This document shows, piece after piece, positions 6,733 to 51,115 of a stretch of 64,000 nucleotides of DNA. Position 1 is the stretch's first letter, and each line of letters opens with the position of its first letter. A program made the position numbers and the translations under genes. The stretch is from Minisyncoccota bacterium (GTDB taxonomy: Bacteria; Patescibacteriota; Minisyncoccia; Moranbacterales; GCA-2747515). Location of the stretch: assembly GCA_937936355.1 (NCBI GenBank), contig CALDDM010000002.1:93173-157172 (forward strand). Direction: 5' to 3'. The notes under the pieces are model-generated. The model made no database searches. It saw only the letters and a program-made list of their open reading frames with translations, and was not told where the DNA came from.

Positions 6733-6756
6733 CTTGTTGAGATAAGATATTTTTTT

Positions 6757-7062
6757 GTGAAAAGTCTACAAAGTTTTTTTTCTAAGAATCGTGAGTTGAG
6801 CATTGATTCAACTGATGATAATACACAGAGTACTGTTGATGATAAGACAGTCTTTTACGTTTTTTCACGCATAATCTCTGAGGAGTATGGCAGAAAGGGT
6901 GAAAAGGCGATTATACCTTCGTTTTATCGTAATCGTATTATTTTTGTACGTTTTTCTGAGTCTTTGTGGGCACAAGAGGTTTGGACGAATAGACAGTATT
7001 TGATACGACGACTCAATGAAAGGGTTGGACAGAAGGTTGTCGTAAATATTAAGCCTCATTAA
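6757..7062 (+). CDS. DUF721 / DciA-like protein
   Basis: 101 aa with a GTG start. C-terminal pattern IIFVRFSESLWAQEVWTNRQYLIRRLNERVGQKVVVNIKP resembles DUF721 proteins, which commonly follow dnaN/recF. Confidence 0.55.
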   Translation: MKSLQSFFSKNRELSIDSTDDNTQSTVDDKTVFYVFSRIISEEYGRKGEKAIIPSFYRNRIIFVRFSESLWAQEVWTNRQYLIRRLNERVGQKVVVNIKPH

Positions 7063-11594: not shown

Positions 11595-11678
11595 AGATAA
11601 GTGACAAGTAATTATCGTGATGTGTGCATCTTAGGTGATGTTAGCTTCTTCTCACCTTAATCTGACAGCCTTTTTGTG

Positions 11679-12389
11679 TTACTGAATTTTTTTGAGCACA
11701 TCGCGAAAGCGTATATATTCAGCTGCTCGTAAACCTGTCCACTTTCCAAGGAATATATGGAATGGGATTAGTAATAAGATGCTATAGGGATTCCTTAGTA
11801 TAAAGCTGATAACGCTTTGTCCAATTTCTGTAGATGAGGAGAGTAATGCGAACCCTATTAGTGCGATAATTAATGTTTCAAGTGCAAGTATAATTGCTGC
11901 TCGTGATCCTTTTTCTATTTGTACCGATACAAATTTTTCTACTAATGTAATTATAATAAGAAGGGCGAAGAGCTCTGTATTTGCGAAGCCAATTTTTGAC
12001 ATCATACCACCAAGAGTTAGAAGTCCAAGAACGGAAAGTGTAACAACTGTGATGGTTATGGCAACACGTGGTAGATATAAAAGACGAAGTTTTTTGAGTG
12101 CAAACCGCATAAGCATTCCAACAACTATCACAACAACGTAGGTTGCTATTGCATATCTGAGACTTGCTATGTTGTCACGTGCTATTGCTATAAAGGCGAT
12201 TGTGATGATGGATGGTGTGTAAATGCCAAATGCTTGCATGCCAATTACTTGACGCAGTAACACAACAATCGTTGCAATTATTGGGAAAAGGAGCAGTATT
12301 GTAACAGTTTCTACAGGAACATTTTGAGAGGTAATAAAATCAATTAAGCAACTAATTTTTTCCCCGTCAAGTGTGCAAGTTTTTGACAT
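11679..12389 (-). CDS. 7TM membrane protein of the '7TM usually fused to inactive transglutaminase' type, here stand-alone
   Basis: 236 aa with about 7 hydrophobic helices. C-terminal GKWTGLRAAEYIRFRDVL resembles that family's ending. Lies directly upstream of, and on the same strand as, the ATP-grasp gene (84-nt gap). Confidence 0.6.
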   Translation of the reverse strand: MSKTCTLDGEKISCLIDFITSQNVPVETVTILLLFPIIATIVVLLRQVIGMQAFGIYTPSIITIAFIAIARDNIASLRYAIATYVVVIVVGMLMRFALKKLRLLYLPRVAITITVVTLSVLGLLTLGGMMSKIGFANTELFALLIIITLVEKFVSVQIEKGSRAAIILALETLIIALIGFALLSSSTEIGQSVISFILRNPYSILLLIPFHIFLGKWTGLRAAEYIRFRDVLKKIQ

Positions 12390-31889: not shown

Positions 31890-31951
31890 GTTGCATTTAA
31901 CTTTATTCTCCGTGATACAATGGATAATTATAAGTCTTTCATGTGACAGCT

Positions 31952-33825: not shown

Positions 33826-36800
33826 TTATCTGTGCTTTGGTACGGCGTAAATCATACCAACCTCTTTTGACTTGGGTGTGAAAAATCTCCTTGCCTTATC
33901 GATAACTTTTTCCCACAAAGATTTTTCTGTTGGTTGGATCATTTCCTTTTTTACCGTGGTCATTTTTGCCGTATTACTTGGCACGGGCTCTCCGCGCATA
34001 TTGGCCATTGCTCGTGCAATAATTGCTTCTTGCTCCTCGTCGGAAAGGTCACTGAGCTTAGGTGTGACTTTTGAGCTTTCTTTTTGCGCAGAACTCCAGG
34101 TCCATGTTTTTTCATTTTTTGTATAAGACACCCCTTCTGGAATTGTGTTTGCAAATTCGTAATCATATTCAACATCGTCAATGTTGCTACCTGTCGGTGA
34201 TCGTAGTTCCACATATCCAGCGGAGTTATTAAGAGAGATTGCGCTGTGCTTCTTTGTGATGTACTTTGATTCACCTGGCTTTAGACTAAAGGATTTTTTG
34301 AGTGGATGATTGCGAGCACTCTCTTCGTCTTTTCCTGTTGCAATGCTCCAGTCTTTTAGTTTTACTTTTTTCTTATCTTTGTTTGTGATCACAATATATT
34401 CTGCACCACTATCTTTCCCTTCTGGGTTTGGCATAATCTGAGTGATGCGAATTTTTCGCTTTGGATAAGATTTTATCTTTATATCAAATTGTTTGGTGGT
34501 TGATTCTGTGTTAGATGAGACTGTGACTGATGCTATGTATGTGCCTTTGTCTTTGTATTTATGTGTAGTGTCTTTTTTGGTGCTTTTTTTGCCATTGCCG
34601 AAGTCCCATCGTATATCTACGTCATCTTCATCTGCGCCTGAAAATTCTACTTCAAATTCTGCCGTGACATCTTTGTAGAGATTGTCTGTGTTGATGTCTG
34701 TGATGATGATCTCTTCGCCAAAGATATTTGGCCTACCGGGGGTTTGTGTTTTTGAAAATCGCCACCTCTTTCCAGTCCAGCCATATGAAATGCCTTTTGC
34801 TGCTGTGTCGTAGGCTAAAGTGCTTGCTATTTTTTCACCAGGATCGATAAGGGAGAGCGTTTCTGTTCCGGAGTTGTTGAGGGCGAATTTGTATGTATCA
34901 CGATCTACTACTTTGTACTCACCAGGGTCGATGACTTCATCGCTGAATGTGTATTTTCCTGATTTTGATCCGTCTTTTAGAGTCCATGATGATAGGTTTA
35001 CAGTGGATTGTGTAGGATTATAGAGTTCGATATATTCCACAACGCTCCCAGTTTCTGCGTCTGGGTTAGCTAGTATTTCGTTAAGAATGAGTGGTGGATA
35101 GGTATCAAGGGTTACTTCAAATGTCTCTGTTGTTGCATTGCTATCTACTCCCGCATCTGCTTCTTGTTTTTTCGATGAAGCATTGGGTGTTCCTGGTGTT
35201 GGGATTAGGGCTTGGACGAGGTTTTCTTTTAAATCTAATCTTTCTCGAATGAGACTCACGCCTTTGGTGGTCTCGCTGTATGAGACTCTATCTTTCTCAT
35301 TTTCATTTGGAGCGATAAGCGTGAGGAACTCTTCACCGGAATTGTTGAGTGCAAATGTAAAGGTCGGTTTTTCTATTGCTATATAGGCACCAGCCGCTAT
35401 AAGATCGTCGTCTTCAAAGGTGTACTTTCCTGATGCGGATCCGTCTTTTAGCATCCATCCGCTTAGGGATATGTCCCGTGCGTTGGGATTGTAGAGTTCG
35501 ATGAACTCTTTGGCAAATGAGCTCTCATCATCAGGGTTGGGGAGGATTTCTGAGATGATGATAGCAGGGTAGATGGCGAGAATTTCAGTTGATGACTCTG
35601 TCTTTGGAGTGTTCTCATCAGTGATCTTGTCACTTTCTTTTTCCTCGGTAAAAATATTTTCTTCTCCAGGTGTCAGGGTTGTGGTCTGTGCCCATGTGCC
35701 AGTATTCCTATCAAAGCTGAGGCTTATGTCTTCGAGGGCTGTGGTATAGGTTACTTCTGACTTTACCTTCTCATCAGGACTTTGTAGTGTTACGGTCTCT
35801 GTGCCGGAATTATTAAGAGCGATTTTGGATTTTTCTCTGTACAATACACTGTATGATTGGGGTTGTACTGTAAGGTCTTGGATTGTATGCTTTCCCGATA
35901 TAGAAGCATCGCTTAGTATCCACCCTGCTAGATCGATAGTGCTTTCGTTTGGATTGTAGAATTCAACAAATTCACCTTGAATATCTTCTCCCGCAGGATT
36001 GGCGAGAACTTCTGTGAGGATGATTTCTGCAAATGGACCTGTTTGTGTTACTTGTTGATCGGCAGGCGCGTTGTTTTGATTGCTACTATCTTGGCTAGCG
36101 CTTTCACTGCTTTGACTTTGCTCAGTGGCTTGTGATGTGATAATGTTCTCACTTTCTGGTGTTGGCGTTGTCGTGACGGTCCATACTCCATCTATTTTGC
36201 TGTAAGAACTACCTTCAGAGATGTTAGTGTATGTCTGTTTGTCAGAGAGGGATCCGTCTGGTTTAGTCAGGGTGACTGTTTCATCGCCTGTGTTGTTGAG
36301 CGCGAAGCCAAATATGCTCCTGTAAACCGTCAGAAGGCTTTTTGGAGCTATCGTATCATTGCTGTCTAGTGCGTGCCGTCCACCTGCTGATGCGTCGCTG
36401 AGTGTCCAGTCTTTTAGTGTCACCTCTGTATCTGATGGATTATACAGCTCGATAAATTCACTTTCTGCATCACTGCCTGGTGGGTTGGGATAGATTTCAC
36501 TTAGTGTAATATCTGGGAGTTCTGCAGCAGGTGTGAGTGAGGTTATTTTTGCGGTAGTTTTGACCTCACTTTCATTTTGTGCTGTTTTGATACCATCACT
36601 TTCTGGTGCACATTGTAGGACTTGTATGATGTTTGGTGCGTTTGGTGTGAGTGTGTTGGAAGGACTTTGTGTTTTATCTGAGGTTGAGAAATTGAGGCTT
36701 CGTCCTTCTTGTGGTGCTGTAAATTTTACATGTGCTATGATTTCGTCTTGTGCATTTTTGAGGGTGACTGTCTCATCACCTGTGTTGTTGAGCGCGAAGC

Positions 36801-38187
36801 CAAAGTCGCTGCGAAATATTGTCTTGTGCTCTCCTGTCCTAATGGTAGCGTCAATAGGGAATTTATAGGCGCCTTTACTTGCGTCGCTTATCGACCAATC
36901 TGCTATCGAGACATCGTAATCATTTGAATTATGAAGCTCGATATACTCACCTGTTGTATCTGCCCCAATCGGGTTGGGAAGTACTTCGTTGATGGTGATG
37001 TTGGTTGTAGTGCCTCCATCTACCTCTTCTTCATCAGCTTTGGTATTATTGTCATTGTTTGAGATGGTGTTTGTGGTTTTAGTATCTTCTGTTTCCTCAC
37101 TGCTTTCATTTTCTTCACCGACTTTTATCCCCTCATTTGCTGTAAAGACATTTTGTGCACCTGGCGTTGGTGTCGTCGTAGTCTCGAGATTACCATCAGT
37201 GGTTAGTTTTGTACGTGCTTGCGACGTGCCCTCCGGTGTGTCACTAAAACTGATTGTGTCGCTTGTTTCGCCCAAAGGGTTTTGTAGTGTGATCGTTTCC
37301 TTGTCGGTGTTGTTGAGGGCAAAGATAAAGTCGCTGCGCATGAGTATGAGATATCCTGCTGCTGGCACTGTAAGCTCTGCTAGTGACTGGGGTTTGTCAC
37401 TTGCATCTACTAGCGTCCAGTCTGTCAGTGTCTGTGGCGAATTTGATGGATTATAGAGCTCGATAAACTCACCTTCCGCATCGCTGCCTTGTGGGTTAGG
37501 CAGTGCCTCTGAGATAATGATTGCTGGATATGTTATGGGTTCCGATGTGCTGTTGTTAGAGTTGTCCTGAGCACTTCCATTTTCTGTGTCACTCGCATTG
37601 TCTGTTGTGTTTTCTATATTGGTGTTGTTCGACTCTTCGACAATATCGCTTTGTGTGCTGTCTTTTTCCTCAAGATCTTCTTGTGTGCTGGTTTCTTGTA
37701 CATGCTCAGATCCAGGTGTGGGATCATGGAGCTCGGGTGTGCTGGACTTTTCGCTGCGATTCCAAGACTTGCCTTCGGTAGAGCTTGTGAATGTTAGTGT
37801 GTCGATGACTGTTCCATCTGCTGTGGTGAGAAAGATGTCGTCTCCAGTGTTGTTGAGTGCAAATGTAAAGTCGGCACTATGTGTGAGGACTGCGTATGAG
37901 AGTGGGGAGATTATAAAGCCCTCTGCAAATGTGTATGAACCTCTACCTGTGCGATCATTTATCGATATGTCAGATAGATCGATAGGTGTTTCACTTGCGT
38001 TGTGAATTTCGATAAATTCATTGCCGCTATCAGCTCCTGTGGGGTTTGGTAATGCTTCTGAGATGTAGAGATCTGTATATTGAGAAGATGATTCCTGTGC
38101 TTGTGCTGTATGAGTGAGCGCGATGTAGGTCGCTATGAAAGCAGCGAATGCATAAATTGCTAGTGTGCTTTTTGATTTGATATCCAT
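33826..38187 (-). CDS. giant secreted/cell-surface protein: 8 lamin-tail-domain (LTD) modules + 1 PKD-like domain
   Basis: 1453 aa. N-terminal signal/anchor LAIYAFAAFIATYIALTHTAQAQE. Eight modules begin I(S/N/T)E(A/V/I)LPNPxGxDxxxEFIELYNP... and contain F(G/T)FALNNTGDE (aa ~39, 219, 395, 558, 720, 873, 1030, 1245). PKD-like DIRWDFGNGKKSTKKDTTHKYKDKGTYIASVTVS at about aa 1190-1225. Confidence 0.8.
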   Translation of the reverse strand: MDIKSKSTLAIYAFAAFIATYIALTHTAQAQESSSQYTDLYISEALPNPTGADSGNEFIEIHNASETPIDLSDISINDRTGRGSYTFAEGFIISPLSYAVLTHSADFTFALNNTGDDIFLTTADGTVIDTLTFTSSTEGKSWNRSEKSSTPELHDPTPGSEHVQETSTQEDLEEKDSTQSDIVEESNNTNIENTTDNASDTENGSAQDNSNNSTSEPITYPAIIISEALPNPQGSDAEGEFIELYNPSNSPQTLTDWTLVDASDKPQSLAELTVPAAGYLILMRSDFIFALNNTDKETITLQNPLGETSDTISFSDTPEGTSQARTKLTTDGNLETTTTPTPGAQNVFTANEGIKVGEENESSEETEDTKTTNTISNNDNNTKADEEEVDGGTTTNITINEVLPNPIGADTTGEYIELHNSNDYDVSIADWSISDASKGAYKFPIDATIRTGEHKTIFRSDFGFALNNTGDETVTLKNAQDEIIAHVKFTAPQEGRSLNFSTSDKTQSPSNTLTPNAPNIIQVLQCAPESDGIKTAQNESEVKTTAKITSLTPAAELPDITLSEIYPNPPGSDAESEFIELYNPSDTEVTLKDWTLSDASAGGRHALDSNDTIAPKSLLTVYRSIFGFALNNTGDETVTLTKPDGSLSDKQTYTNISEGSSYSKIDGVWTVTTTPTPESENIITSQATEQSQSSESASQDSSNQNNAPADQQVTQTGPFAEIILTEVLANPAGEDIQGEFVEFYNPNESTIDLAGWILSDASISGKHTIQDLTVQPQSYSVLYREKSKIALNNSGTETVTLQSPDEKVKSEVTYTTALEDISLSFDRNTGTWAQTTTLTPGEENIFTEEKESDKITDENTPKTESSTEILAIYPAIIISEILPNPDDESSFAKEFIELYNPNARDISLSGWMLKDGSASGKYTFEDDDLIAAGAYIAIEKPTFTFALNNSGEEFLTLIAPNENEKDRVSYSETTKGVSLIRERLDLKENLVQALIPTPGTPNASSKKQEADAGVDSNATTETFEVTLDTYPPLILNEILANPDAETGSVVEYIELYNPTQSTVNLSSWTLKDGSKSGKYTFSDEVIDPGEYKVVDRDTYKFALNNSGTETLSLIDPGEKIASTLAYDTAAKGISYGWTGKRWRFSKTQTPGRPNIFGEEIIITDINTDNLYKDVTAEFEVEFSGADEDDVDIRWDFGNGKKSTKKDTTHKYKDKGTYIASVTVSSNTESTTKQFDIKIKSYPKRKIRITQIMPNPEGKDSGAEYIVITNKDKKKVKLKDWSIATGKDEESARNHPLKKSFSLKPGESKYITKKHSAISLNNSAGYVELRSPTGSNIDDVEYDYEFANTIPEGVSYTKNEKTWTWSSAQKESSKVTPKLSDLSDEEQEAIIARAMANMRGEPVPSNTAKMTTVKKEMIQPTEKSLWEKVIDKARRFFTPKSKEVGMIYAVPKHR
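34093..38073 (-). repeat. intragenic tandem coding repeats (LTD modules, period about 480-500 nt)
   Basis: DNA-level conservation between modules. For example, 36271-36312 versus 36763-36804 (GGTGACTGTYTCATCRCCTGTGTTGTTGAGCGCGAAGCCAAA, 40/42 identical, offset 492 nt). GGATTRTAGAGYTCGAT recurs at about 35017, 35487, 36437 and 37449. Confidence 0.7.
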
Positions 38188-38409: not shown

Positions 38410-39000
38410 TTAATCGTGTGCTATCTCGTGGTCAACTTGTTCTTTCTTTATGGCTTCGGGGTGCGCACGTTTGGAGATAGCCTGGCGATTCAGATGCATG
38501 ATCAGCGTTTTGATTTTTTCTGGTCTTCCTACGTGACGGAACATGAATTTTCCTTGTGAACCAGCAGTTTGTACATAGACATCGCCATAGTTGAAAATGG
38601 TTTGAATGATGCCTTGTATCTCGCTCTCCACATCTTGTATGTGTGTGTAGTCGAGCTCGCTTGTTGAGCGTGCAAAAAACCCCTTTTGTTCGACGTTGAT
38701 GACACGCGCACTTGTTATGATCCAGATATCCAAAAAATAATCCACCCAAACAAAGAAGCTGTAGAGCCATGTGACGAGGTAAAGCATTGCTGTTCCAAAA
38801 TAGATCGCTGGTATGAGCTGTGGCGTGCCATTTGCCTGCATGATGCGCGCTGCATAGATTGAGCAGGCTGTGACTAGGATGAGAAAGAAAGCTGCGATAA
38901 TGAAGCGTGACGCAAGATCAAACCAGTGTCTGTGTACGACGGCATACGTTCTCTCTTTGGTATGTGTCGTTGAGTGAATGATTTTGTCAAAATTATTCAT
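38410..39000 (-). CDS. membrane protein with bacterial PH (YdbT/bPH_2-like) domain
   Basis: 196 aa. 2 TM followed by WIITSARVINVEQKGFFARSTSELDYTHIQDVESEIQGIIQTIFNYGDVYVQTAG, a bPH pattern. Confidence 0.7.
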   Translation of the reverse strand: MNNFDKIIHSTTHTKERTYAVVHRHWFDLASRFIIAAFFLILVTACSIYAARIMQANGTPQLIPAIYFGTAMLYLVTWLYSFFVWVDYFLDIWIITSARVINVEQKGFFARSTSELDYTHIQDVESEIQGIIQTIFNYGDVYVQTAGSQGKFMFRHVGRPEKIKTLIMHLNRQAISKRAHPEAIKKEQVDHEIAHD

Positions 39001-39209
39001 TAGTATTGCGTCAATTGTTCAAAGGGTATCATAGCAAATAGAGCTGTGGTGATCGTGACAAGAATGAGTGTTCCAATGATAAAAAATACTGTTGTCATCG
39101 TTGCTATCTTTTTGTCAATGGAATAGCGTTGCAAATGAAATGTGACGATGATGCATGCTATGAGTACGCATATCAGAAAAACAAAGTAGAGTAGTGCAAA
39201 AAGTTGCAT
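39000..39209 (-). CDS. small 2-TM membrane protein
   Basis: 69 aa and hydrophobic. Its stop overlaps the start of the downstream bPH gene (TAATG). Lies 27 nt downstream of ruvB. Confidence 0.45.
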   Translation of the reverse strand: MQLFALLYFVFLICVLIACIIVTFHLQRYSIDKKIATMTTVFFIIGTLILVTITTALFAMIPFEQLTQY

Positions 39210-39236
39210 GATATGGAGCTTTGGATTGATTTATAC

Positions 39237-40262
39237 TTAGCTTTCGTATGGGTGGCCGAGATAATCGTATGCATGCTTGGTAGCAACGCGACCTCTCGGT
39301 GTCCGATCAAGGAATCCGTTTTGTGTTAGGTAGGGCTCATAAACATCTTCGATTGTCTGCACTTCTTCGGAGAGGGCATTTGCAATGGTATTGATGCCGA
39401 CTGGTCCTCCGCCAAATTTTTCGATGATGAGTGTGAGAAAGTCTCGATCGGTCGGCTCTAGTCCTGCGTTATCTATTGCGAGCATGTCGAGTGTTTTTGT
39501 GACTGTGTCTAGTGAAATTGTATCATGCTCGTGCACTTGAGCGAAGTCACGTGCACGCTTTAAGAGCCTGTTTGCAATACGTGGTGTTTGTCTTGCGGCG
39601 TTGCCAAGTTTTTTTGCGGCATCTTGATTAATGCCTATTTCGAGGATGTTTGCTGAGCGAGAAATGATGCTTTGGATATCGTCGATATCGTAGAATTCAA
39701 GTCGATGAATTGCACCGAATCGATCACGTAGGGGTCCTGTTAATGTGCCCATGCGTGTTGTTGCGCCGACGAGCGTGAATTTTGGGAGGTCGATTTGTAA
39801 TGCTTGTGCACTTGGCCCCTTGCCTACAACAAGGTCGAGTTTATGATCCTCCATTGCTGGGTAAAGTACTTCCTCAACGGATTTGTTGAGCCTGTGAATC
39901 TCATCGATAAAAAGTATGTCACCGTCACTCATGTTTGTAAGTATTGATCCGAGATCACCTACGCGCTCAATAGCTGGACCTGAGGTTACCTTGATATTGG
40001 CACTCATTTCTTTTGCGATGATGTTGGCGAGTGTTGTTTTCCCTAGACCCGGTGGTCCGTAGAGGAGGATGTGCTCGAGTGCATCACCTCGTTTTTTTGC
40101 TGCATCAAGAAAGATGCGCAATTGCTTTTTGAGTGTTTTTTGACCAACATACTCTTCGAGAGTTTGTGGTCGTAGTGTAATATCAAAAGTGACTTCTTGT
40201 ACATCCTGTTCTGCGGGTACGCTTTCTCCTTCTAATTCTTGTTTTGATGAGGTATTGAGCAT
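39237..40262 (-). CDS. ruvB: Holliday junction branch-migration ATPase RuvB
   Basis: 341 aa. LRPQTLEEYVGQ, Walker A GPPGLGKTT, Walker B LFIDEIHRL, and RTPRGR near the C-terminus. Confidence 0.95.
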   Translation of the reverse strand: MLNTSSKQELEGESVPAEQDVQEVTFDITLRPQTLEEYVGQKTLKKQLRIFLDAAKKRGDALEHILLYGPPGLGKTTLANIIAKEMSANIKVTSGPAIERVGDLGSILTNMSDGDILFIDEIHRLNKSVEEVLYPAMEDHKLDLVVGKGPSAQALQIDLPKFTLVGATTRMGTLTGPLRDRFGAIHRLEFYDIDDIQSIISRSANILEIGINQDAAKKLGNAARQTPRIANRLLKRARDFAQVHEHDTISLDTVTKTLDMLAIDNAGLEPTDRDFLTLIIEKFGGGPVGINTIANALSEEVQTIEDVYEPYLTQNGFLDRTPRGRVATKHAYDYLGHPYES

Positions 40263-40814: not shown

Positions 40815-41255
40815 TTAATTCTCTTTTTCGTCGGTTTCTATCCACCTGACGACTGTCCGGTAGGTTGGTTGAATTTCTTTCAATTCTTCACCATCCCTCC
40901 CTTTTAAAATAGAGAGCTTCCCGTTTTTTGTGAGGACTATTTTTTCAGTGAGTCCGTTTTCTTGTGTGGGTTGCTTGATCTTGCTTATTCGCTCTTCGAT
41001 ACACCTTGGTATTGTGTTCAACCTATCGATACAGGCTTGTATGTCTCGCTCTATTCTTCTCGTTTCCAGAAAAGCCTCTTTTGACCGATAATTTTCTGGA
41101 TATTTACTTTGATCGTGGATTGATATCGCTATTGCCGATATGTTCCAGAAGATCGTTAGGGCTAGGCTAACAAAAAAAGTTTTGATCACGAACCATAAAG
41201 GCTCTATTTTTTTGAGGTTTTCCTCTAGAGCAGGGTTTTGGTTTTCGCTTTGCAT
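40815..41255 (-). CDS. single-pass membrane protein, unknown family
   Basis: 146 aa. TM LWFVIKTFFVSLALTIFWNISAIAISI. No recognised motif. Confidence 0.45.
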   Translation of the reverse strand: MQSENQNPALEENLKKIEPLWFVIKTFFVSLALTIFWNISAIAISIHDQSKYPENYRSKEAFLETRRIERDIQACIDRLNTIPRCIEERISKIKQPTQENGLTEKIVLTKNGKLSILKGRDGEELKEIQPTYRTVVRWIETDEKEN

Positions 41256-41406
41256 CTCATTCTCCTTTTTGTCCTGGGGGTTTAGGACATGATACTATAG
41301 CATAATATTATTATTTTGTAAATACACCCTCCTTTATATATTGACATTTTGCTAGTATAATGCTATTTTTCTTTTGCATGAAAAATGTGCGATTAAAGGA
41401 GTTATT

Positions 41407-42510
41407 TTGAAAATTGATAAAAAGAAAGGACCTGAGCTGGTAGCGGCTGTAGATCATTTGCTCGAGTGCTCAATGCGCGACCGTCCGAAGAGTGCTTATT
41501 TGTTTGACCTGGCACGTCGAGGCGCATCTTCACAGGGTTGGGGTGCGTTGGCTGTGTTTTTTTATAGAAATAATCGAGGCTCGACCTATGTAGAGCGCGC
41601 ACGTCAACAGGCTAGGAAATCCTTTGAGGATATCCTTGCGCTGAGCGCCGTACAGAGCGCTGCGCTTGGTGATGTGCGAGGTGTCTATCGTGCGCAAAAA
41701 GATGGACACGAGCTTTCGCAGAAAAGTATCGATGCCCTTTATGAGGCTGTCAGTATGTATCCGAGGGGTCCTGCTGGAGAGAGTGATCTGCGATTGGCGT
41801 TTTTGCTACAGCCTTCACCACATCTGGTGGTACAGTCTCTTATAAGGAGCCGGATTCGTGTATTGGATGATGTGCAAAAAATACCACATGATACGAAGGG
41901 TTTTGGCACGTACTGTGACAAGATCATTGCGCTACTGAGACCTACAAGTCATATTGTGCCTATGATCCATCTCGCGTGCATTACAACTGTGTGTGATGCT
42001 TCAGTTAGACGTATTGTGCGGTATGTTGTCGCGTCTGAGGATCGAAGCCTCTTCTCGTCGGTAAGATTGTTACTCGAAAAGTATGATGTTTCCGTAAGTC
42101 TGATGAGTCAATATGTTAATGCTGCAATGGATTGTGGCGTTGTGTGGAATGTCCAAACTTTTGAAAAGTACGTAGGTCAGAGACCCTCGACACCTCAAAG
42201 AAAAGAGATGCAGAATCGCTATCTTTTGTCAGGAAAAATTATTGAAATTGACCGATCAGTCGAATACTTCGGAAGGCGATTTAGGCGCTCTGAAGTTGGC
42301 GATGCATTTGATAAGCTGATCCATACTGGAAGCTTGGCGCGTGCCTTGGACCTTTTTGACGAGGTTTCACAAAGAAGGAAGAAGGTGTTACTTGCCACAG
42401 CGATCTCGCATGGCATATTAGGGATTGCAGAATCTGCCGCCAAGAGGCTTGGTAGTACACTGACAGATCATCAATTGATTTTGCTTTCTTGCAATCACAA
42501 AAATTTGTAA
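41407..42510 (+). CDS. all-alpha-looking cytoplasmic protein, unknown family
   Basis: ORF 41374..42510. AAGGAG (41396-41401) lies 5 nt upstream of TTG 41407, so that start is preferred. R/A/L-rich and visibly GC-richer than its surroundings. No recognised motif. Confidence 0.5.
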   Translation: MKIDKKKGPELVAAVDHLLECSMRDRPKSAYLFDLARRGASSQGWGALAVFFYRNNRGSTYVERARQQARKSFEDILALSAVQSAALGDVRGVYRAQKDGHELSQKSIDALYEAVSMYPRGPAGESDLRLAFLLQPSPHLVVQSLIRSRIRVLDDVQKIPHDTKGFGTYCDKIIALLRPTSHIVPMIHLACITTVCDASVRRIVRYVVASEDRSLFSSVRLLLEKYDVSVSLMSQYVNAAMDCGVVWNVQTFEKYVGQRPSTPQRKEMQNRYLLSGKIIEIDRSVEYFGRRFRRSEVGDAFDKLIHTGSLARALDLFDEVSQRRKKVLLATAISHGILGIAESAAKRLGSTLTDHQLILLSCNHKNL

Positions 42511-42544
42511 TCGTACGTGGCATGGCCATGTAGGATCAATGAAT

Positions 42545-42580
42545 AAAAAGTCCGCACTCTTAGATGAGTGCGGACTTTTC
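42545..42580. terminator. bidirectional rho-independent terminator
   Basis: AAAAA-GTCCGCACTC-TTAGAT-GAGTGCGGAC-TTTTC forms a 10-bp stem between convergent genes. Confidence 0.85.
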
Positions 42581-42603: not shown

Positions 42604-45600
42604 TTAAAGCATTGTGACGCGACGGACCTCCTCTAGCGTTGTTTCGCCGCTCAAGGCTTTCAGGAGGCCATCTTCTTCTATGGTGATCATACCTGTTTCT
42701 TTGGCAACGGATTCTATGTCACTTGCAAGAGCTCCTCGCATTATTGCGCTAACGATTGCATCATTTAATACAAGGACTTCGCTGAGAGCTATGCGACCTT
42801 TGTAGCCAAGGCCATTACATTTTGCACATGATCCTGGTGTATACGTTGTTCCTTCTGTTATTTTTGGGATCGTAACCTTGGGATTGCTTGCTACGCGATC
42901 GAGGAAGCTTGTGATGATTGTTTGCTCTTCCTGTGTAAGTTCGCGATTTTGTTTGCATGAGCAGAGTTTGCGTACTAGGCGCTGAGCGATGATGGCGTTG
43001 AGCGATGCTGTGATGTCATCCCGCGAGAGATTTAAGTTTTCGAGTCTGCTCAATGTTGCGATTGCGCTGTTGGTGTGTAGTGTGGAGAGGACAAGGTGTC
43101 CTGTCTGCGCTGCGTCTGTTGCTGTGCTGGCAGTCTCTGTATCCCGAATTTCTCCAAGGAAGATTACATCGGGGTCTTGTCGCAAGAGTGAGGTCAGTGC
43201 ATTTGCAAATGTGTAGCCCTTTTCTGTATTTACCTGTGTCTGTAATATTCCAGGAATCTGATATTCAATTGGATCTTCAATGGTGATGACTTTGATTGCG
43301 TCTGTCGCTATCATTTGCAGGATGCTGTAGAGTGTTGTGGTTTTTCCTGATCCAGTTGGACCGGTATTGAGAATCATGCCATGAGGTTTACGTACTTGTT
43401 GCATGATACGCTCTTGGTTATATGGTGTGATTCCAAGCTCGCTGATGTCTGTATGAATTGCATCGCTTGTTAGTAGTCGCATTACTACTGTTTCTCCAAA
43501 TCCGCCGACGATGATTGAGACACGAACATCTGCCGTTGCTTCTTTTGTCTCATCGAGACCTTCATAAAAAATACCGAAACGACTGTCGGTTACGCCTTGT
43601 CGTGCAGTTGTTGGTATGTTTGCGAGTACTTTGATCTCCCCAAGGATCTGCTGAAAACTTGTTAGCTCTATTGACGCGATTGTTTGTAGTGTGCCATCGA
43701 TACGCAGGCGAATTTGTACGTCTTTGTCATTTGGCTCAATGTGGATGTCACTTGCGCGTAAGTGTGTTGCATAGCCTATGATTTGAGGTAATACATTACT
43801 ACTGGTTGCTTGTGCTATGGTTGTTTGCATCTCACTGATACTATTTGCTTTTTGGGATGCATTTATAGTGTGCTGTTGTGAGATGGTGAGTCGTTTGGTT
43901 AAGGTTTGTGACATGAGGCTGTCGTAGAGATCTTGAATCATGCCTGATTCGGATGTGACACGCCACACCTCATCGATCGATGTGGATCCTTCAAGTGCTT
44001 TTAAGATACCATCTTGTGTCATTGTGACGAATCCTTCTTCAATTGCTTGCTTGGTGAGCTCTGCTTCGCCATGCATCTCAAGAATCATTTCTTCTAGTTT
44101 GTCACCAATTGTGAGTGCCTCAAAAATCCCAATACGTCCTTTGTATCCACTATCCCCACACTTCACGCAACCAACTGGCCTGTAAAGTGTTGTAATAGTT
44201 TTTGGTGTTTCAATCTCCGCTTTTGGTGAGATGAGGCTTATCATCTTCATCAATGTTTCTGCTACTTCTTGTGCTGGTTCATATGTCTGTTTACAGTGTT
44301 TGCACAGTTTTCGCACAAGGCGTTGTGCGAGAAAGATGTCAGATGCTGACGGTATTAGTGTTGGTCGAATTCCCATCTCAGTAAGGCGGGCTATGGTGCC
44401 AATTGCTCCATTGGTGTGGAGTGTCGAAAGGACAAGGTGTCCTGTGAGCGCTGCACCGAGCGCTACTTCTGCCGTTTCCTCATCGCGGATCTCTCCCACA
44501 AGGATAATATCTGGATCTTGTCGTACGATTGATCGCAAAGCATTTGCGAATGAGAAGTCTTGATCATGCGTTGCTTCTGTTTGAACAATTCCTTCGATTT
44601 GATACTCAATTGGGTTTTCTATCGTAATGATTTTGTTTTGTTCATTGGTCAGGTGCTTTAGTATGCTGTAGAGTGTTGTGGTTTTTCCTGATCCAGTTGG
44701 TCCTGTTGTGAGGATGAGGCCGTCAGTTTTTCCAAGTGCACCCATAAGGTCCTTGTGGGCTTTTCCTCTGAGTCCAAGGCTCTCTATAGAGGTTGTCATA
44801 TCGCCACCGAGGACGCGCATCACGATGTTTTCTGATTTCTTTCCCGGAATGATGCTCGTTCGTATGTCTACCTTTTTCCTGCTTGTCGTGTTGTCTTGTG
44901 CTTGTTCCTCGATATCAAAAGAAAAGCGACCATCCTGCGCTTCGCCTCGGATGTTAATTTTCATACTACTCATCAGCTTGATGCGCGAAACGATCGTAGG
45001 GAGGTTTGCGAGTGGGATGTGCACGACATCTTTGAGTAGTCCGTCAATGCGATAACGTAATCGAACATGATCTGTTTGAGGTTCAATGTGGATGTCACTT
45101 GCCTCTAGTGCGATTGCACCTGTTAAGATGATGCTGAGAATTTCTGTTGTTGAGAGTGATTCGATATCCTTTGAGAGTTTGAGGAGTTTGCCAGTGCTTG
45201 CCTCAAAAGCTTTTAGGTCGGCGCTCCCCAGGGATAAGCGCATCGTGTCGAGCTTGTCCGTGATGAGTACGTTTTTGTAGATGTTGAGACCTTTTTGCAA
45301 TGAGGCTCCTGAGATTACTGTGAGCAATACTGTGACGCCTTGGTTTTGTTCCAGGTTTTCAATGTGTTTTAGTAGACGCTTGTCTTCTGGTTTGCTTGTT
45401 CCGAAGTGGAGTTTGCGACCACTTTTGTGAAAGCAAATGACATTTAAATCGTGAGCGATGTTTTCCGGTATTAGAAAGATATCCTCTGTGGATAGTGGTG
45501 TGATGTTGAGGTCGGCGTATGGTAGGCCAAGTTTATTTGCGAGGCGCGCTGTGTACTGTTCGCCGCCCTTTTTGCGCATGCGTGTGATTTTGTCTGTGAG

Positions 45601-45651
45601 GATTTGATCTTTTTTGCGCGCAACTTTTTGTCCTTGAATGACTTGGATCAT
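42604..45651 (-). CDS. tandem-duplicated (two-module) type II/IV secretion-family ATPase, PilB/GspE-like
   Basis: 1015 aa. Module 1 (aa ~1-590): GspE-N-like N-terminus, Walker A GPTGSGKTTT, Walker B DPDIILVGEIRD, His box GHLVLSTLHTN, CKHC...CVKCGDSGYKGR. Module 2 (aa ~620-1015): GPTGSGKTTT, DPDVIFLGEIRD, GHLVLSTLHTN, CSC...CAKCNGLGYKGR. Confidence 0.85.
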   Translation of the reverse strand: MIQVIQGQKVARKKDQILTDKITRMRKKGGEQYTARLANKLGLPYADLNITPLSTEDIFLIPENIAHDLNVICFHKSGRKLHFGTSKPEDKRLLKHIENLEQNQGVTVLLTVISGASLQKGLNIYKNVLITDKLDTMRLSLGSADLKAFEASTGKLLKLSKDIESLSTTEILSIILTGAIALEASDIHIEPQTDHVRLRYRIDGLLKDVVHIPLANLPTIVSRIKLMSSMKINIRGEAQDGRFSFDIEEQAQDNTTSRKKVDIRTSIIPGKKSENIVMRVLGGDMTTSIESLGLRGKAHKDLMGALGKTDGLILTTGPTGSGKTTTLYSILKHLTNEQNKIITIENPIEYQIEGIVQTEATHDQDFSFANALRSIVRQDPDIILVGEIRDEETAEVALGAALTGHLVLSTLHTNGAIGTIARLTEMGIRPTLIPSASDIFLAQRLVRKLCKHCKQTYEPAQEVAETLMKMISLISPKAEIETPKTITTLYRPVGCVKCGDSGYKGRIGIFEALTIGDKLEEMILEMHGEAELTKQAIEEGFVTMTQDGILKALEGSTSIDEVWRVTSESGMIQDLYDSLMSQTLTKRLTISQQHTINASQKANSISEMQTTIAQATSSNVLPQIIGYATHLRASDIHIEPNDKDVQIRLRIDGTLQTIASIELTSFQQILGEIKVLANIPTTARQGVTDSRFGIFYEGLDETKEATADVRVSIIVGGFGETVVMRLLTSDAIHTDISELGITPYNQERIMQQVRKPHGMILNTGPTGSGKTTTLYSILQMIATDAIKVITIEDPIEYQIPGILQTQVNTEKGYTFANALTSLLRQDPDVIFLGEIRDTETASTATDAAQTGHLVLSTLHTNSAIATLSRLENLNLSRDDITASLNAIIAQRLVRKLCSCKQNRELTQEEQTIITSFLDRVASNPKVTIPKITEGTTYTPGSCAKCNGLGYKGRIALSEVLVLNDAIVSAIMRGALASDIESVAKETGMITIEEDGLLKALSGETTLEEVRRVTML
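43322..43359. repeat. 38-nt exact intragenic repeat, copy 1 (Walker-A region of ATPase module 2)
   Basis: ATGCTGTAGAGTGTTGTGGTTTTTCCTGATCCAGTTGG is identical to 44663-44700. The offset is 1341 nt (447 codons, in frame). The flanks are diverged. Confidence 0.85.
44663..44700. repeat. 38-nt exact intragenic repeat, copy 2 (Walker-A region of ATPase module 1)
   Basis: Same 38-mer as 43322-43359. Confidence 0.85.
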
Positions 45652-45849
45652 GATGGTGTGATAGAAAATGGGTCAAAGATATGTCTCTTCTTACCTCCCA
45701 GTATATCATCTTCTGTGGTCATGGATGAACTTTTTTCTGACTGACCAGCGTCTCTGTGTCATCTGTCTTCACTCTACCTTCTTCCTTCTTGTTGCATCTT
45801 GCTGAAGCCTCTTTTGTGTGATTTTGCCTGACCACCTTTGGCTGAGGCT

Positions 45850-47028
45850 TTATTTTTTTGTCAGGTTCTTTTGTAGTAGAGTAACGAGATTTTGTTGGGC
45901 TTCTTGGGCATCTGGCACGCGAAATGCGATTTCATAAAAGCCTGATTTTTCCTTGGGTCCAAAAACTTCTTCCGGCAAGTTTGCTTTGCTTGATGTATCG
46001 ATGAGGCAATAGAATTGGTGTGTACCTGTGGATTCCCCAACCTCGTGCTGGTCTTTTTCCTGATATATGATTGCAATGTAGTCTGCCTTTGTGTGATTGC
46101 TTCTTATTTTTGTGATGATGCTTGGGATGAGGTGATGCGTTGTGTTGGTGGACGTAAAGTCTTCAGATGAGATGAGTGTTGTCACGATCTTACCATCTTC
46201 GTGTGTTGTGAGCCTTGTTAGGGCTTTACCCCATAGCTTGAGGCGAGCAAGGGGTTGACTAGAGAAGAGCTCATCGATGATTAGTTGTTGATTGGCGCCA
46301 TGCTCGATCATGGTGCTTGCTATTGTCAGTGCGCGAGGTGTCGTGTGTGTAGCACGAAAGCTGTCTGTTGCTACGATGACGCCTGCAAGAAAACACTGTG
46401 CCACTTCTTTTGTGATAGCGTCAGGATATGTTTTTTGACAGAGATTAGCCATAATTTCACTCACTGAAGATGCGGTGAGCGTCACGATATTAATATGTCC
46501 GTATTGTTCATTTGCCCCACCGCGATCGATATTGATGATTGGGAGATCATAGAATAGGTCTGGCATCTGTAGGCCAAGTGGTCCAAATGACTCTTTGTCA
46601 GGGGCGCCGACTGCGATCATTGCATCGTATGGAAAGTCTGCGAGGCCAAACGAAAAGTCGCGGGAGTCTATGGTTCCATTTTTTGGAGTGACGCGAATCT
46701 CTACAGTGTCTTCTGTTCGCTCACTCCTGATGTTGGTGACGTCGTTGTGCGCTGTTTTGAATGTCAGAACAAAATCTCGTGTGTGAGAGAGTGAGTGGCG
46801 AATGTTTTTGGGCTGCGGTAGGAAAGCATACATTTCGCGGTAGTTTGCTGTGTCGTCATAAGCAATGGTTGCTTCGATTCCAATCGCTTCGCACACGAGT
46901 GCGAGTCCATAGCTTGCGGCGATGATGTCTCCATGGATTTGCGGGGTTGTTTCTTCGGGAATAATAACGAGCAAGTGCTGTGCACTTGCAAGAATCTTCT
47001 GAAATTGTTCTGTGGGGGAGAGTGCCAT
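45850..47028 (-). CDS. DHH-family (NrnA-like) phosphoesterase homolog with degenerate catalytic motifs
   Basis: ORF 45850..47064; ATG 47028 (MALSPTEQFQKIL) preferred. Layout LLVIIPEE...HGDIIAASYGLAL, ...INIDRGGANEQYG (the DHH position reads DRG), GVIVATDSFR. Confidence 0.55.
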   Translation of the reverse strand: MALSPTEQFQKILASAQHLLVIIPEETTPQIHGDIIAASYGLALVCEAIGIEATIAYDDTANYREMYAFLPQPKNIRHSLSHTRDFVLTFKTAHNDVTNIRSERTEDTVEIRVTPKNGTIDSRDFSFGLADFPYDAMIAVGAPDKESFGPLGLQMPDLFYDLPIINIDRGGANEQYGHINIVTLTASSVSEIMANLCQKTYPDAITKEVAQCFLAGVIVATDSFRATHTTPRALTIASTMIEHGANQQLIIDELFSSQPLARLKLWGKALTRLTTHEDGKIVTTLISSEDFTSTNTTHHLIPSIITKIRSNHTKADYIAIIYQEKDQHEVGESTGTHQFYCLIDTSSKANLPEEVFGPKEKSGFYEIAFRVPDAQEAQQNLVTLLQKNLTKK

Positions 47029-47125
47029 GGGGTGTCGTTTCAGTGTAACGTAGTATTTTAGCAAGTGAGAGATAACAGGTCAACAAATTGTTCTTTTTAG
47101 ATAAGAGATATGGTATTGTTGTCTC

Positions 47126-50572: not shown

Positions 50573-51115
50573 TTATGCGATGATTTTATCGATCGCACGG
50601 GTGAAGACGGTGCGCCAACCCTTTACCTTGGGTTTTACGTAGAATTCATCCTGTGCGATATATTTGACGCACGCAACTTTTGGACGATCTTTGAGGAGTT
50701 GATCTCTGTCAACCTCTTCAATTGTACGCACATACTTTTTCAACCCATTTTTTTTCAGGTATTCAACTACGTACTGATCAGAATTTTCTGATTCGACGCG
50801 ACCTGGTGTTTTGCGCCAACCGTATGTTCCAGACAGACTCTCTACTGATTTTTTCTTCTGAGTTAACACTTCTTTACGAGGCTCAGCATAGCTGTGCAAC
50901 ATATAGACCATATGGTCGATCTCTTGCGTAAGCGACGCAAGAAGCGAGGCGTGTGAATCTTTGGCTTTCTGGATCTCTTCATCCAAGGCCTTTTTTTCAG
51001 ATTGTAGGGACTGTGTCTTGAATCTGATTTGATCAAGTAGTTTCTGCGCCTCATCCGCAGATTTAGGTGTAAGGATGTTTGAAATTTTAAAGCGATTGGC
51101 AATACCCATGGGCAT
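50573..51115 (-). CDS. Mu Gam-like host-nuclease inhibitor / DNA-end-binding protein
   Basis: 180 aa. By eye it is colinear with phage Mu Gam: an N-terminal coiled coil, then SLSGTYGWRKTPGRV...YLKKNGLKKYVRTIEEVDRDQLLKD...DEFYVKP (compare Mu LVTGDVSWRVRPPSV...LERLGLQRFIRTKQEINKEAIL...EDFSIIP). Confidence 0.7.
   Translation of the reverse strand: MPMGIANRFKISNILTPKSADEAQKLLDQIRFKTQSLQSEKKALDEEIQKAKDSHASLLASLTQEIDHMVYMLHSYAEPRKEVLTQKKKSVESLSGTYGWRKTPGRVESENSDQYVVEYLKKNGLKKYVRTIEEVDRDQLLKDRPKVACVKYIAQDEFYVKPKVKGWRTVFTRAIDKIIA

What the first reader, a model, noticed from the sequence alone, without database searches (positions are those of the whole stretch)
42604..45651. Covalently duplicated PilB/GspE-type ATPase encoded as an orphan
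One uninterrupted 1015-codon frame carries two complete secretion-ATPase modules. Each has its own Walker A (GPTGSGKTTT), Walker B (ILVGEIRD / IFLGEIRD), His box (GHLVLSTLHTN) and Cys-cluster (CKHC..CVKC versus CSC..CAKC). Canonical PilB/GspE/PilT proteins are single-module and act as homohexamers. A tandem fusion would therefore build a pseudo-hexamer from three chains, with two non-equivalent site classes. Only module 1 keeps the GspE-N-like domain, and module 2 has a CxC instead of CxxC, so the halves are already specialised. No PilC-like platform, PilM/N/O, prepilin peptidase or pilin gene (no G-F-T-L-I-E type leader in any small ORF) is recognisable in this 64-kb window. The gene is insulated by a 10-bp-stem terminator on one side and a 198-bp spacer on the other.
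Basis: partly seen in the sequence, partly recalled or inferred. Interest (0 to 1): 0.72.

Follow-up and report, generated by a model that had tools for sequence, protein, structure and literature searches.

The report
Two-in-one pilus motor ATPase gene
This gene really does encode two complete PilB-type pilus-motor ATPases fused into one protein, a design conserved across Moranbacteria-type ultra-small bacteria that also keep a normal pilus motor elsewhere, and apparently never described.

Summary
Window 42604-45651 (-) is one 1015-codon ORF with two full T2SSE modules: 358.7 and 357.9 bits, each covering profile positions 10-370 of 370, and 43% identical to each other. Only module 1 has an N1D.

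It is not an artefact. At least 118 homologues from independent assemblies (Moranbacteria and related Patescibacteria) share the architecture, including an inter-module linker of exactly 40 residues. Every PilB/GspE-defining residue is invariant or at least 90% conserved in both modules. Module 2's CxC is family-wide.

"Orphan" is true only locally. The window holds no other pilus gene. In relatives the gene always sits in the same housekeeping string (DHH - tandem ATPase - RuvB - bPH_2). One NCBI record carries both the tandem gene and a canonical operon (two-component system - PilB - PilC - pilins - PilM - PilN) more than 100 kb away.

So it is an extra, second motor. My best reading is that three chains build one six-module ring that matches a trimeric PilC. 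This is inferred, not shown, and a stacked double ring is not excluded. A diverged three-module relative and two further apparently independent duplications exist. No paper describing such fusions was found. Verdict: new variant of a known kind.

The parts
42604..45651 (-). Complete CDS of the two-module PilB/GspE-type ATPase (1015 aa plus stop)
   Evidence: identical protein P0001 in NCBI/ENA on a 164-kb contig
45262..45651 (-). N1D (residues 1-130), a GspE-N/MshEN-like domain present only once per chain
   Evidence: Pfam MshEN at residues 41-107, 24.3 bits. pLDDT 82-90 over residues 31-120. No c-di-GMP motif.
44782..45180 (-). N2D of module 1 (residues 158-290), with arginine fingers R264 and R279
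   Evidence: alignment to PilB of G. metallireducens; invariant in the family
43954..44781 (-). CTD of module 1 (residues 291-566): Walker A 317-324, Asp-box E349, catalytic E387, pore-loop D390/E392, T403, H405/H412, R447, Cys 450/453/495/498 (CxxC...CxxC)
43834..43953 (-). Inter-module linker (residues 567-606). It is exactly 40 residues in all 118 family members, with the motif (I/L)xxLY(D/E)xLMSQSL(S/T)R. Predicted as a helix (569-583) plus a short strand.
43441..43833 (-). N2D of module 2 (residues 607-737), with arginine fingers R710 and R725
42607..43440 (-). CTD of module 2 (residues 738-1015): Walker A 764-771, Asp-box E796, catalytic E834, pore-loop D837/E839, T850, H852/H859, R894, Cys 897/899/942/945 (CxC...CxxC; one-residue deletion relative to CxxC)
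42542..42579 (-). Intrinsic terminator after the stop codon (10-bp G+C-rich stem, 6-nt loop, T run). It lies between the ATPase gene and the convergent ORF 41374-42510.
   Evidence: -29.2 kcal/mol, z = -8.35
45652..45849 (-). 198-nt spacer between the upstream DHH-like gene and the ATPase start codon
   Evidence: no convincing promoter consensus found
45850..47064 (-). Upstream same-strand neighbour: DHH-family (weakly NrnA-like) protein, the conserved partner in gene order
   Evidence: weak NrnA hit. Its orthologous position carries PF01368 DHH in L001, L002, L005, L006, L088, L090 and L092.
38410..40262 (-). Downstream conserved neighbours RuvB (39237-40262) and a bPH_2 protein (38410-39000). 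In the window they are separated from the ATPase by two lineage-specific ORFs of unknown function.
   Evidence: RuvB and bPH_2 follow the tandem gene in L001, L003-L007, L090 and L092, and RuvB in L088

Best explanation
SHOWN:
- The gene encodes a genuine single-chain, two-module motor ATPase of the PilB/GspE clade, laid out as N1D - N2D1 - CTD1 - fixed 40-residue linker - N2D2 - CTD2.
- It belongs to a family conserved in Moranbacteria-type Patescibacteria. The family arose from one old internal duplication and has been inherited as a unit ever since.
- Both modules keep every nucleotide-binding, catalytic, arginine-finger, pore-loop, His-box and zinc-site residue.
- The gene sits in a conserved housekeeping gene string, not in a pilus operon.
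- Relatives with the same gene also encode PilC. At least one record also holds a complete canonical type IV pilus operon with its own single-module PilB.

INFERRED:
- Both modules hydrolyse ATP.
- The protein is a second, accessory motor that docks on the same PilC/PilM platform as the canonical PilB. It could serve a second mode of filament dynamics, for example an alternative extension mode, retraction, or DNA uptake.
- Three chains form one six-module ABABAB ring. The fixed linker ties CTD1 to N2D2 as one rigid 'packing unit', and CTD2 packs on N2D1 of the next chain.
- That ring would pair chain for chain with a trimeric PilC, whose own internal duplication presents six alternating Cyto1/Cyto2 domains to the six N2Ds.
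For: Architecture and reality:
- One ORF with two full T2SSE hits.
- At least 118 full-length homologues at 44-66% identity and 96-100% coverage from NCBI, ENA, JGI and Logan assemblies.
- The linker is exactly 40 aa in all of them.

Catalytic competence of both modules:
- Walker A, Asp box, GEIRD, His box and RxRIDG are about 90% or more conserved in both.
- The equivalents of PilB-Gm R271, R286, E357, E395, E400, T411, H413, H420 and R455 map to invariant or at least 90% conserved residues in each module.
- N2D and CTD are about equally conserved in the two modules (0.66/0.78 against 0.67/0.74).
- The modules superpose on PilB cores 5TSH and 5IT5 at TM about 0.90.

One old duplication:
- m1-m1 and m2-m2 identities exceed m1-m2.
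- The m1 clade has bootstrap 75, and the m1 and m2 subtrees have matching topology.

Accessory motor:
- The string DHH - tandem - RuvB - bPH_2 is conserved.
- PilC lies on the same contigs.
- Record JBFOMZ010000137.1 holds the tandem gene at about 123-126 kb and HisKA-RR-PilB-PilC-pilins-PilM-PilN within its first 20 kb.

In-ring model:
- PulF/PilC is modelled as a trimer with a ring of alternating Cyto1/Cyto2 domains, each binding one N2D (PMC10790770).
- The rigid bodies of PilB hexamers are N2D plus the neighbouring CTD (PMC5424180).
- The three-module relative P0002 has modules only 60-66% identical at the DNA level, so it is an evolved protein and not an assembly artefact. Its middle module is m2-type N2D plus m1-type CTD, so every CTD-to-N2D junction type in it already exists in a two-module ring, and 2 x 3 = 6.
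Against: - No oligomer was modelled or measured. AlphaFold2 gives good domains (mean pLDDT 80.6) but pTM of only 0.47 for the chain and 0.61 for the CTD1-linker-N2D2 construct, and the linker helix scores only about 62-66 pLDDT. A rigid CTD1|N2D2 unit is therefore not supported by the models.
- A trimer would present only three N1Ds where canonical hexamers present six.
- PilB hexamers work with C2 symmetry, which an ABABAB ring can only approximate.
- The rate-covariation test between domains did not discriminate.
- Whether every tandem-bearing genome keeps a canonical PilB is unknown. In L005 and L088, PilC sits alone 5.6-6 kb from the tandem gene and no canonical PilB was seen.
- Whether these genomes have a PilT is unknown.
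- The conserved neighbours (DHH, RuvB) could instead hint at a DNA-related role.
- P0002 is known from a single contig.
Confidence: 0.5

Rival explanations
1. Stacked double ring. Six chains form a canonical PilB-like hexamer from module 1 (six N1Ds, six N2D1s facing PilC and PilM). A second coaxial hexameric ring of module 2 hangs beneath it, as in KaiC (CI/CII), EccC or type II AAA+ proteins. Ring 2 would regulate or boost ring 1.
For: - The ATPase C-terminus can carry a coaxial ring. Solved GspE hexamers 4KSS and 4KSR are C-terminal fusions to the Hcp1 ring; the query aligns to chain residues 26-407 of 581.
- Natural tandem RecA-like or AAA+ duplications usually stack (own knowledge: KaiC, ClpB, p97, EccC).
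- This model keeps six N1Ds and all canonical contacts.
- A short structured linker of fixed length fits it as well.
Against: - The force output of PilB-type motors goes through the N2D/pore face to PilC. A second ring would have no partner to act on.
- N2D2 is as conserved as N2D1.
- The chimeric middle module of P0002 (m2-type N2D, m1-type CTD) would need a lateral N2D(m2)|CTD(m1) packing that does not exist in a stacked two-module parent.
- Three stacked rings for P0002 seem less plausible than a dimer giving six modules.
Confidence: 0.25
2. A motor that does not act on pili. The tandem ATPase works with other partners, for instance in DNA uptake or processing, as suggested by its fixed position between a DHH (NrnA/RecJ-family) gene and ruvB. 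In that case it really is functionally an orphan with respect to the pilus machinery.
For: - It is never found in a pilus operon in the 12 tandem loci inspected, and DHH - tandem - RuvB synteny is conserved down to 44% protein identity.
- A canonical PilB already serves the pilus operon.
- The tandem protein evolves much faster (about 49% identity among family members) than the canonical PilB (73-100% among the 120 best hits).
Against: - It keeps the PilB/GspE-clade signature, including pore-loop residues, the tetracysteine site and an N1D of the type that binds PilM/GspL.
- No alternative partner is conserved next to it apart from housekeeping genes.
- Synteny in small, slowly rearranging CPR genomes near oriC may be inherited rather than functional.
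- In one lineage PilC lies only 5.6-6 kb away.
Confidence: 0.15
3. One module is a degenerate, regulatory pseudo-ATPase, like the non-catalytic alpha subunits of F1 or an inactive D1/D2 ring. Only the other module does the work.
For: - Module 2 has CxC instead of CxxC and lacks an N1D.
- One distant tandem representative (P0135) has lost the Walker A lysine in module 1.
Against: In this protein and in all 118 family members, both modules keep the Walker A lysine, the Asp-box Glu, the catalytic Glu, both His residues and both Arg fingers.
Confidence: 0.05
4. Artefact: two ordinary adjacent pilB-like genes joined by a sequencing or assembly error.
For: None found. It was a reasonable prior for a single metagenome-derived sequence.
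Against: - The identical protein is present in two sources, and at least 118 homologues from independent projects have the same uninterrupted architecture.
- The linker is 40 aa in every one and carries a conserved motif.
- m1 and m2 co-diverge.
Confidence: 0.01

Closest known systems
PilB, the type IVa pilus extension ATPase (Geobacter metallireducens 5TSG/5TSH/6OLJ; Thermus thermophilus PilF 5IT5/5OIU)
   Same: - Each module has the N2D + CTD core at 41-42% identity and TM about 0.9.
- All defining residues are present.
- Module 1 has an N1D.
   Different: - Two cores in one chain, joined by a fixed 40-residue linker.
- One N1D for two cores.
- Module 2 has CxC in the zinc site.
- The gene lies outside the pilus operon and co-exists with a canonical PilB.
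- PilF multiplies N-terminal domains, not the ATPase core.
GspE, the type II secretion ATPase (Vibrio 1P9R, 4KSS/4KSR, 4PHT)
   Same: Same clade, with the tetracysteine motif and an N1D that binds GspL/PilM-type partners.
   Different: No secretin or T2SS genes are expected in monoderm-like CPR cells. The nearest machinery in relatives is a type IV pilus operon.
PilC/GspF platform protein, and TadB/TadC
   Same: This is a precedent within the same machine for 3 x 2 = 6. PilC is an internal duplicate modelled as a trimer with six alternating cytoplasmic domains, whereas Tad systems use two single-domain paralogues (PMC10790770).
   Different: It is a membrane protein, not the motor. The matching 3:3 pairing with a tandem ATPase is my inference.
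KaiC, T7SS EccC, and type II AAA+ proteins (ClpB, p97, NSF)
   Same: Tandemly duplicated P-loop ring ATPase modules in one chain (own knowledge).
   Different: These stack their modules into coaxial rings. They belong to other families and act on threaded substrates or a clock cycle.
Sliding clamps: PCNA (2 domains x 3 chains) and bacterial beta clamp (3 domains x 2 chains)
   Same: They give the same arithmetic as the two-module family and the three-module relative P0002 if the modules sit in one ring (own knowledge).
   Different: They are unrelated, non-enzymatic folds and serve as an analogy only.

Membership tests
PilT-like (T2SSE, PF00437) secretion/pilus ATPases | Full-length match to the T2SSE profile above the gathering score | tested here: met
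   Module 1 scores 358.7 bits and module 2 scores 357.9 bits, both covering profile 10-370 of 370, against a cut-off of 24.9
PilT-like ATPases | Walker A GxxGxGK[ST], Asp-box Glu, atypical Walker B with catalytic Glu, His box, and two arginine fingers (PMC5424180) | tested here: met
   Module 1: K323, E349, E387, H405/H412, R264/R279. Module 2: K770, E796, E834, H852/H859, R710/R725. All are invariant in 118 sequences.
PilB/GspE clade (as opposed to PilT/PilU) | Tetracysteine zinc-binding motif in the CTD | tested here: met
   Module 1 has CxxC...CxxC (C450, C453, C495, C498). Module 2 has four invariant Cys, but the first pair is CxC (C897, C899, C942, C945). Zinc binding itself was not tested.
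PilB/GspE clade | Closer to PilB/GspE than to PilT in sequence and structure | tested here: met
   PDB sequence search: PilB, PilF and GspE at E = 1e-84 to 1e-92, against PilT at about 1e-31. Foldseek: 41-42% identity and TM 0.88-0.91 to PilB, against 24-25% identity to PilT4.
PilB/GspE clade | N-terminal N1D (GspE-N/MshEN) that anchors the ATPase to PilM/GspL | tested here: inconclusive
   There is one N1D per two cores. Pfam MshEN scores 24.3 bits, just above the 23.1 cut-off, and the domain is well folded in the model. Partner binding was not tested.
NCBIfam TIGR02538, type IV-A pilus assembly ATPase PilB (equivalog) | Whole-protein score above the curated cut-off of 675.65 | tested here: inconclusive
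   The score is 804.4 bits, but it is summed over two modules. The canonical single-module PilB of a relative scores 590.9, below the cut-off. The model therefore does not decide equivalence for this lineage.
Type IV pilus extension motor (functional membership) | Encoded with, or shown to act on, PilC/PilM/pilins | tested here: not met
   No pilus gene in the window and no pilus operon within 10 kb in the 12 tandem loci of relatives; a lone PilC lies 5.6-6 kb away in L005 and L088. Partners exist elsewhere in the genome, so the working hypothesis stands but the feature is not met by gene context.
Ring-forming hexameric motor | Six ATPase cores per ring, with N2D packing on the neighbouring CTD | not testable with these tools
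   Only monomer AlphaFold2 was available, giving pTM 0.47 and 0.61. No multimer prediction and no coordinates could be obtained.
MshE-type c-di-GMP receptor ATPases | Tandem 24-residue RLGxx(L/V/I)(L/V/I)xxG... motifs in the N-terminal domain (PMC5013675) | tested here: not met
   The relaxed motif is absent from 118 of 118 tandem proteins and from 120 of 120 canonical Moranbacteria PilBs

The most novel reading that the evidence does not exclude
A natural, covalently linked PilB heterodimer assembles as a trimer into a six-site ring with two fixed, non-equivalent classes of active site. It pairs one-to-one with the trimeric, internally duplicated PilC platform. In Moranbacteria it acts as a second motor beside the canonical PilB and supplies a function that other bacteria give to a separate ATPase (retraction or DNA uptake). 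The three-module relative would then form the same ring from two chains.
Probability: 0.3. Interest if true: 0.8.

Novelty: new variant of a known kind. Interest (0 to 1): 0.6.

Why it matters
Two questions about PilB/GspE/PilT motors are still argued from crystal and cryo-EM snapshots and from AlphaFold models: how they coordinate their six sites (C2 versus C3 cycles), and how a hexamer couples to a platform protein now modelled as a trimer.

A natural fusion fixes the order of two distinguishable modules in the ring. That gives the handle engineered covalent rings gave for ClpX-type machines: one site class can be mutated at a time, the stoichiometry can be read directly, and each N2D can be asked which half of PilC it contacts.

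It also shows that Moranbacteria-type CPR bacteria, whose lifestyle is thought to depend on pili and DNA uptake, carry a second, fast-evolving pilus-type motor. Current annotation hides it under the generic name 'GspE/PulE family protein'. The separate duplications in P0127 and probably P0132, and the three-module form, suggest that this architecture is an accessible and selectable solution.

Tried and rejected
The taxonomic range therefore rests on source names (Moranbacteria, Moraniibacteriota, Parcubacteria and Patescibacteria groups).
2. A 1092-aa ORF in a Rubrobacter MAG (L016) looked like a tandem by regex but has only one real module. Rejected.
3. The source contig could not be retrieved: P0001 is not on record in the look-up of encoding contigs, and no accession or name came from the cluster look-up.
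4. The c-di-GMP-binding MshEN motif is absent from both the tandem and the canonical PilB, so it says nothing about regulation.
5. Rate covariation between domains (mirror-tree partial correlations): like domains co-vary most, and the discriminating pairs differ little (0.18-0.25). Inconclusive.
6. AlphaFold2 of CTD1-linker-N2D2 alone gave pTM 0.61 from only 20 sequences. That is about what the larger domain alone would give, so it neither supports nor excludes a rigid junction unit.
8. Six literature searches found no description of fused or duplicated T2SSE ATPases, and a seventh found nothing on PilT in Moranbacteria. The library lacks most subscription-journal papers, so absence is not proof.
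9. PilT status of these genomes could not be determined. No PilT lies within 10 kb of the tandem gene or of the two canonical operons. The only PilT-like gene seen was in a Saccharibacteria locus (L010).
10. The promoter scan gave nothing above background near the start codon.


Full report
**1. The observation**

The window has an uninterrupted ORF at 42604-45651 on the minus strand (1015 aa, ATG start).
- Walker A at residues 317 and 764
- GEIRD at 386 and 833
- the His box at 404 and 851
- four cysteines per half: CKHC/CVKC, and CSC/CAKC

Pfam reports two T2SSE stretches in the whole protein. Scanned separately, the halves give almost identical full-length hits of 358.7 and 357.9 bits, each covering profile positions 10-370 of 370. 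The two cores (158-566 and 607-1013) align end to end at 43% identity, E = 1e-104.

Only the first core is preceded by an N1D. Pfam MshEN matches residues 41-107, just above its cut-off, and AlphaFold folds the region well.

The terminator after the stop codon is real (10-bp stem, -29.2 kcal/mol, z = -8.35), and so is the 198-nt upstream spacer.

**2. Not an artefact, but a family**

A search of 5.8 billion proteins returned the identical protein (NCBI and ENA, 164-kb contig). Among the 120 best hits, 118 further proteins of about 1000-1070 aa match at 44-66% identity over 96-100% of the query. Where sources name them, they are 'GspE/PulE family protein' or 'PilB' from Candidatus Moranbacteria, Moraniibacteriota, or the Parcubacteria or Patescibacteria group (taxonomy).

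All have two Walker A and two Walker B motifs. In an alignment of 118 of them, the inter-module linker is exactly 40 residues in every sequence and carries the motif (I/L)xxLY(D/E)xLMSQSL(S/T)R.

An exhaustive HMMER search with module 2 against 1.84 billion cluster representatives found 13,285 relatives at E <= 1e-30. Only about 15 of the top representatives are two-module proteins. The architecture is therefore rare overall but well established in one lineage.

**3. Both modules look catalytically competent**

McCallum et al. (PMC5424180) list the residues that define this ATPase family. I aligned each half to solved PilB/PilF chains and verified that chain numbering is UniProt +20.

| PilB (G. 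metallireducens) residue | Module 1 | Module 2 |
|---|---|---|
| Arg fingers R271, R286 | R264, R279 | R710, R725 |
| Asp-box E357 | E349 | E796 |
| Catalytic E395 | E387 | E834 |
| Pore-loop E400 | E392 | E839 |
| T411 | T403 | T850 |
| His-box H413, H420 | H405, H412 | H852, H859 |
| R455 | R447 | R894 |

All are invariant or at least 90% conserved across the family. N2D and CTD are about equally conserved in the two modules.

The CxC of module 2 is a one-residue deletion relative to CxxC and is family-wide, whereas module 1 keeps CxxC. The AlphaFold2 model (mean pLDDT 80.6) superposes on PilB cores at TM about 0.9 and 41-42% identity, against 24-25% identity for PilT.

**4. Evolution**

Identities run m1-m1 63% and m2-m2 59% between proteins, against 48% for m1-m2 within a protein and 47% between proteins. 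In a bootstrapped NJ tree of 86 cores:
- the main m1 group is a clade (bootstrap 75)
- the m2 sequences group together in the full tree
- the m1 and m2 subtrees have the same internal branching, as expected if the two modules have co-diverged since one old duplication
- the canonical single-module PilB of Moranbacteria is a separate clade (bootstrap 100)

Deep branches are unresolved.

Two other tandem proteins look like independent duplications, because their own two modules are each other's closest relatives: P0127 (bootstrap 100) and P0132 (full tree only, bootstrap not computed). One distant representative, P0135, has lost the Walker A lysine in module 1.

P0002 (1460 aa) has three complete modules. 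They are only 60-66% identical at the DNA level, so it is an evolved protein and not a mis-assembly. Its middle module combines an m2-type N2D with an m1-type CTD.

**5. 'Orphan' is local only**

In the window I found no pilus component by any of three methods:
- Pfam on all ORFs of at least 110 aa
- a six-frame scan for prepilin leaders
- tblastn with every protein of two canonical Moranbacteria pilus operons

The window is a housekeeping region next to the replication origin: YidC, DnaA, DnaN, PBP1, RuvC, RuvB, RuvA, PolA, TsaE and others.

In relatives the tandem gene sits in the same string, DHH-family gene - tandem ATPase - RuvB - bPH_2 protein, down to 44% protein identity.

The same genomes do have pilus genes:
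- A lone PilC lies 5.6-6 kb from the tandem gene in L005 and L088.
- Contig-length fingerprints link PilC and tandem proteins on five contigs.
- NCBI record JBFOMZ010000137.1 (150,260 bp) carries the tandem gene at about 123-126 kb, with the same neighbours as the window. Within its first 20 kb it carries a canonical operon: histidine kinase, response regulator, single-module PilB (582 aa), PilC, three pilin-like proteins with class III leaders, PilM and PilN.
- The same operon occurs on a 304,559-bp JGI contig whose length matches that of tandem protein P0041.

The canonical PilB is far more conserved (73-100% among the best 120 hits) than the tandem protein.

**6. What it most likely is and does**

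Shown: a real, conserved, two-module PilB/GspE-clade ATPase with two intact site classes, encoded apart from the pilus operon, and co-existing with PilC and (in at least one genome) with a canonical PilB.

Inferred: it is a second motor for the type IV filament machinery.

For its assembly I prefer a single ring of three chains (ABABAB), for four reasons:
- PilC/PulF is itself an internal duplicate, modelled as a trimer that offers six alternating cytoplasmic domains to six N2Ds (PMC10790770). A tandem ATPase would match it chain for chain.
- The rigid bodies of these motors are N2D plus the neighbouring CTD. A linker of invariant length fits a connector inside such a body (CTD1|N2D2).
- The three-module relative keeps only junction types that already exist in such a ring, and 2 x 3 = 6.
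- A second stacked ring would have no obvious mechanical output.

This remains inference. AlphaFold2 did not fix the inter-module geometry (pTM 0.47 and 0.61), and no multimer prediction was possible.

**7. Rivals**

- Stacked double ring (about 0.25). It is favoured by precedent (KaiC, EccC, type II AAA+), by the GspE-Hcp1 C-terminal fusions in the PDB, and by keeping six N1Ds.
- A role outside pili, for example DNA handling, suggested by the DHH/RuvB synteny (about 0.15).
- A degenerate regulatory module (about 0.05). The conservation data contradict it.
- An assembly artefact (about 0.01).

**8. Comparison and novelty**

Each module passes the sequence and fold tests for the PilB/GspE clade. 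The gene-context criterion for a pilus extension motor is not met, and the ring architecture could not be tested. Six literature searches found no description of fused or duplicated T2SSE ATPases, and a seventh found nothing on PilT in Moranbacteria. Database names are generic. I classify it as a new variant of a known kind, with interest 0.6. It offers a natural covalent handle on ring-ATPase coordination and on the ATPase:platform stoichiometry, and it is an unrecognised second motor in a major CPR lineage. Its function and oligomeric state are still unproven.

Noticed in passing
L002:10001-14383 (protein P0002, JGI 3300022698 contig Ga0248662_100121): A three-module relative (1460 aa) with three complete ATPase cores. 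The modules are 60-66% identical at the DNA level. The middle module is a chimera of an m2-type N2D and an m1-type CTD, as expected from an old unequal crossover. It is known from one contig only.
   Followed up: yes
proteins P0127, P0132 and P0135 (representatives): Further tandem PilB-like proteins. The two modules of P0127 are each other's nearest relatives (bootstrap 100), and the same holds for P0132 in the full tree only, which suggests independent duplications. P0135 has lost the Walker A lysine in module 1 (GSGTT).
   Followed up: partly
window 33826-38187 (-): A 1453-aa protein with eight Lamin-tail (LTD) domains and a PKD domain. Shorter LTD/PKD proteins occupy the same neighbourhood in relatives (L002, L090), so this looks like a conserved large surface protein close to the tandem ATPase.
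   Followed up: no
window 40815-42510: Two ORFs with no family hit (146 aa on the minus strand; 378 aa on the plus strand, convergent on the ATPase gene) lie between the tandem ATPase and ruvB. Relatives have only small or no ORFs there, so this looks like a lineage-specific insertion.
   Followed up: partly
window 1-6800: A replication-origin region: an R3H protein, YidC, DnaA (3449-5014) and DnaN (5548-6732). Cumulative GC skew reaches its minimum at about 2-4 kb and rises steadily across the rest of the window.
   Followed up: no
window 10185-12389 (-): A sugar-transfer-type ATP-grasp fused to a zinc-protease-like domain, next to a 7TM_transglut membrane protein. The same pair, sometimes with extra RimK-like ATP-grasp genes, recurs near the tandem ATPase in relatives (L005, L090, L092).
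   Followed up: no
window 50573-51115 (-): A phage Mu Gam-like protein (DNA-end binding) encoded among housekeeping genes.
   Followed up: no
L089:6652-17647 and L091:8510-19475: The canonical Moranbacteria pilus operon is preceded by a histidine kinase and response regulator pair. It contains large pilin-like proteins (457-501 aa) with CarboxypepD_reg or PilX_N hints. No PilT or prepilin peptidase lies within 10 kb.
   Followed up: partly
L005:2760-3980 and L088:10001-11224: In one Moranbacteria lineage PilC stands alone between clpP and pnp, 5.6-6 kb from the tandem ATPase, instead of next to a canonical PilB. Whether that lineage still has a single-module PilB is unknown.
   Followed up: partly
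window 31943-33784 (+): A 613-aa, very acidic protein with no hit in Pfam. The neighbouring small ORFs at 28.5-31.8 kb are also unannotated.
   Followed up: no
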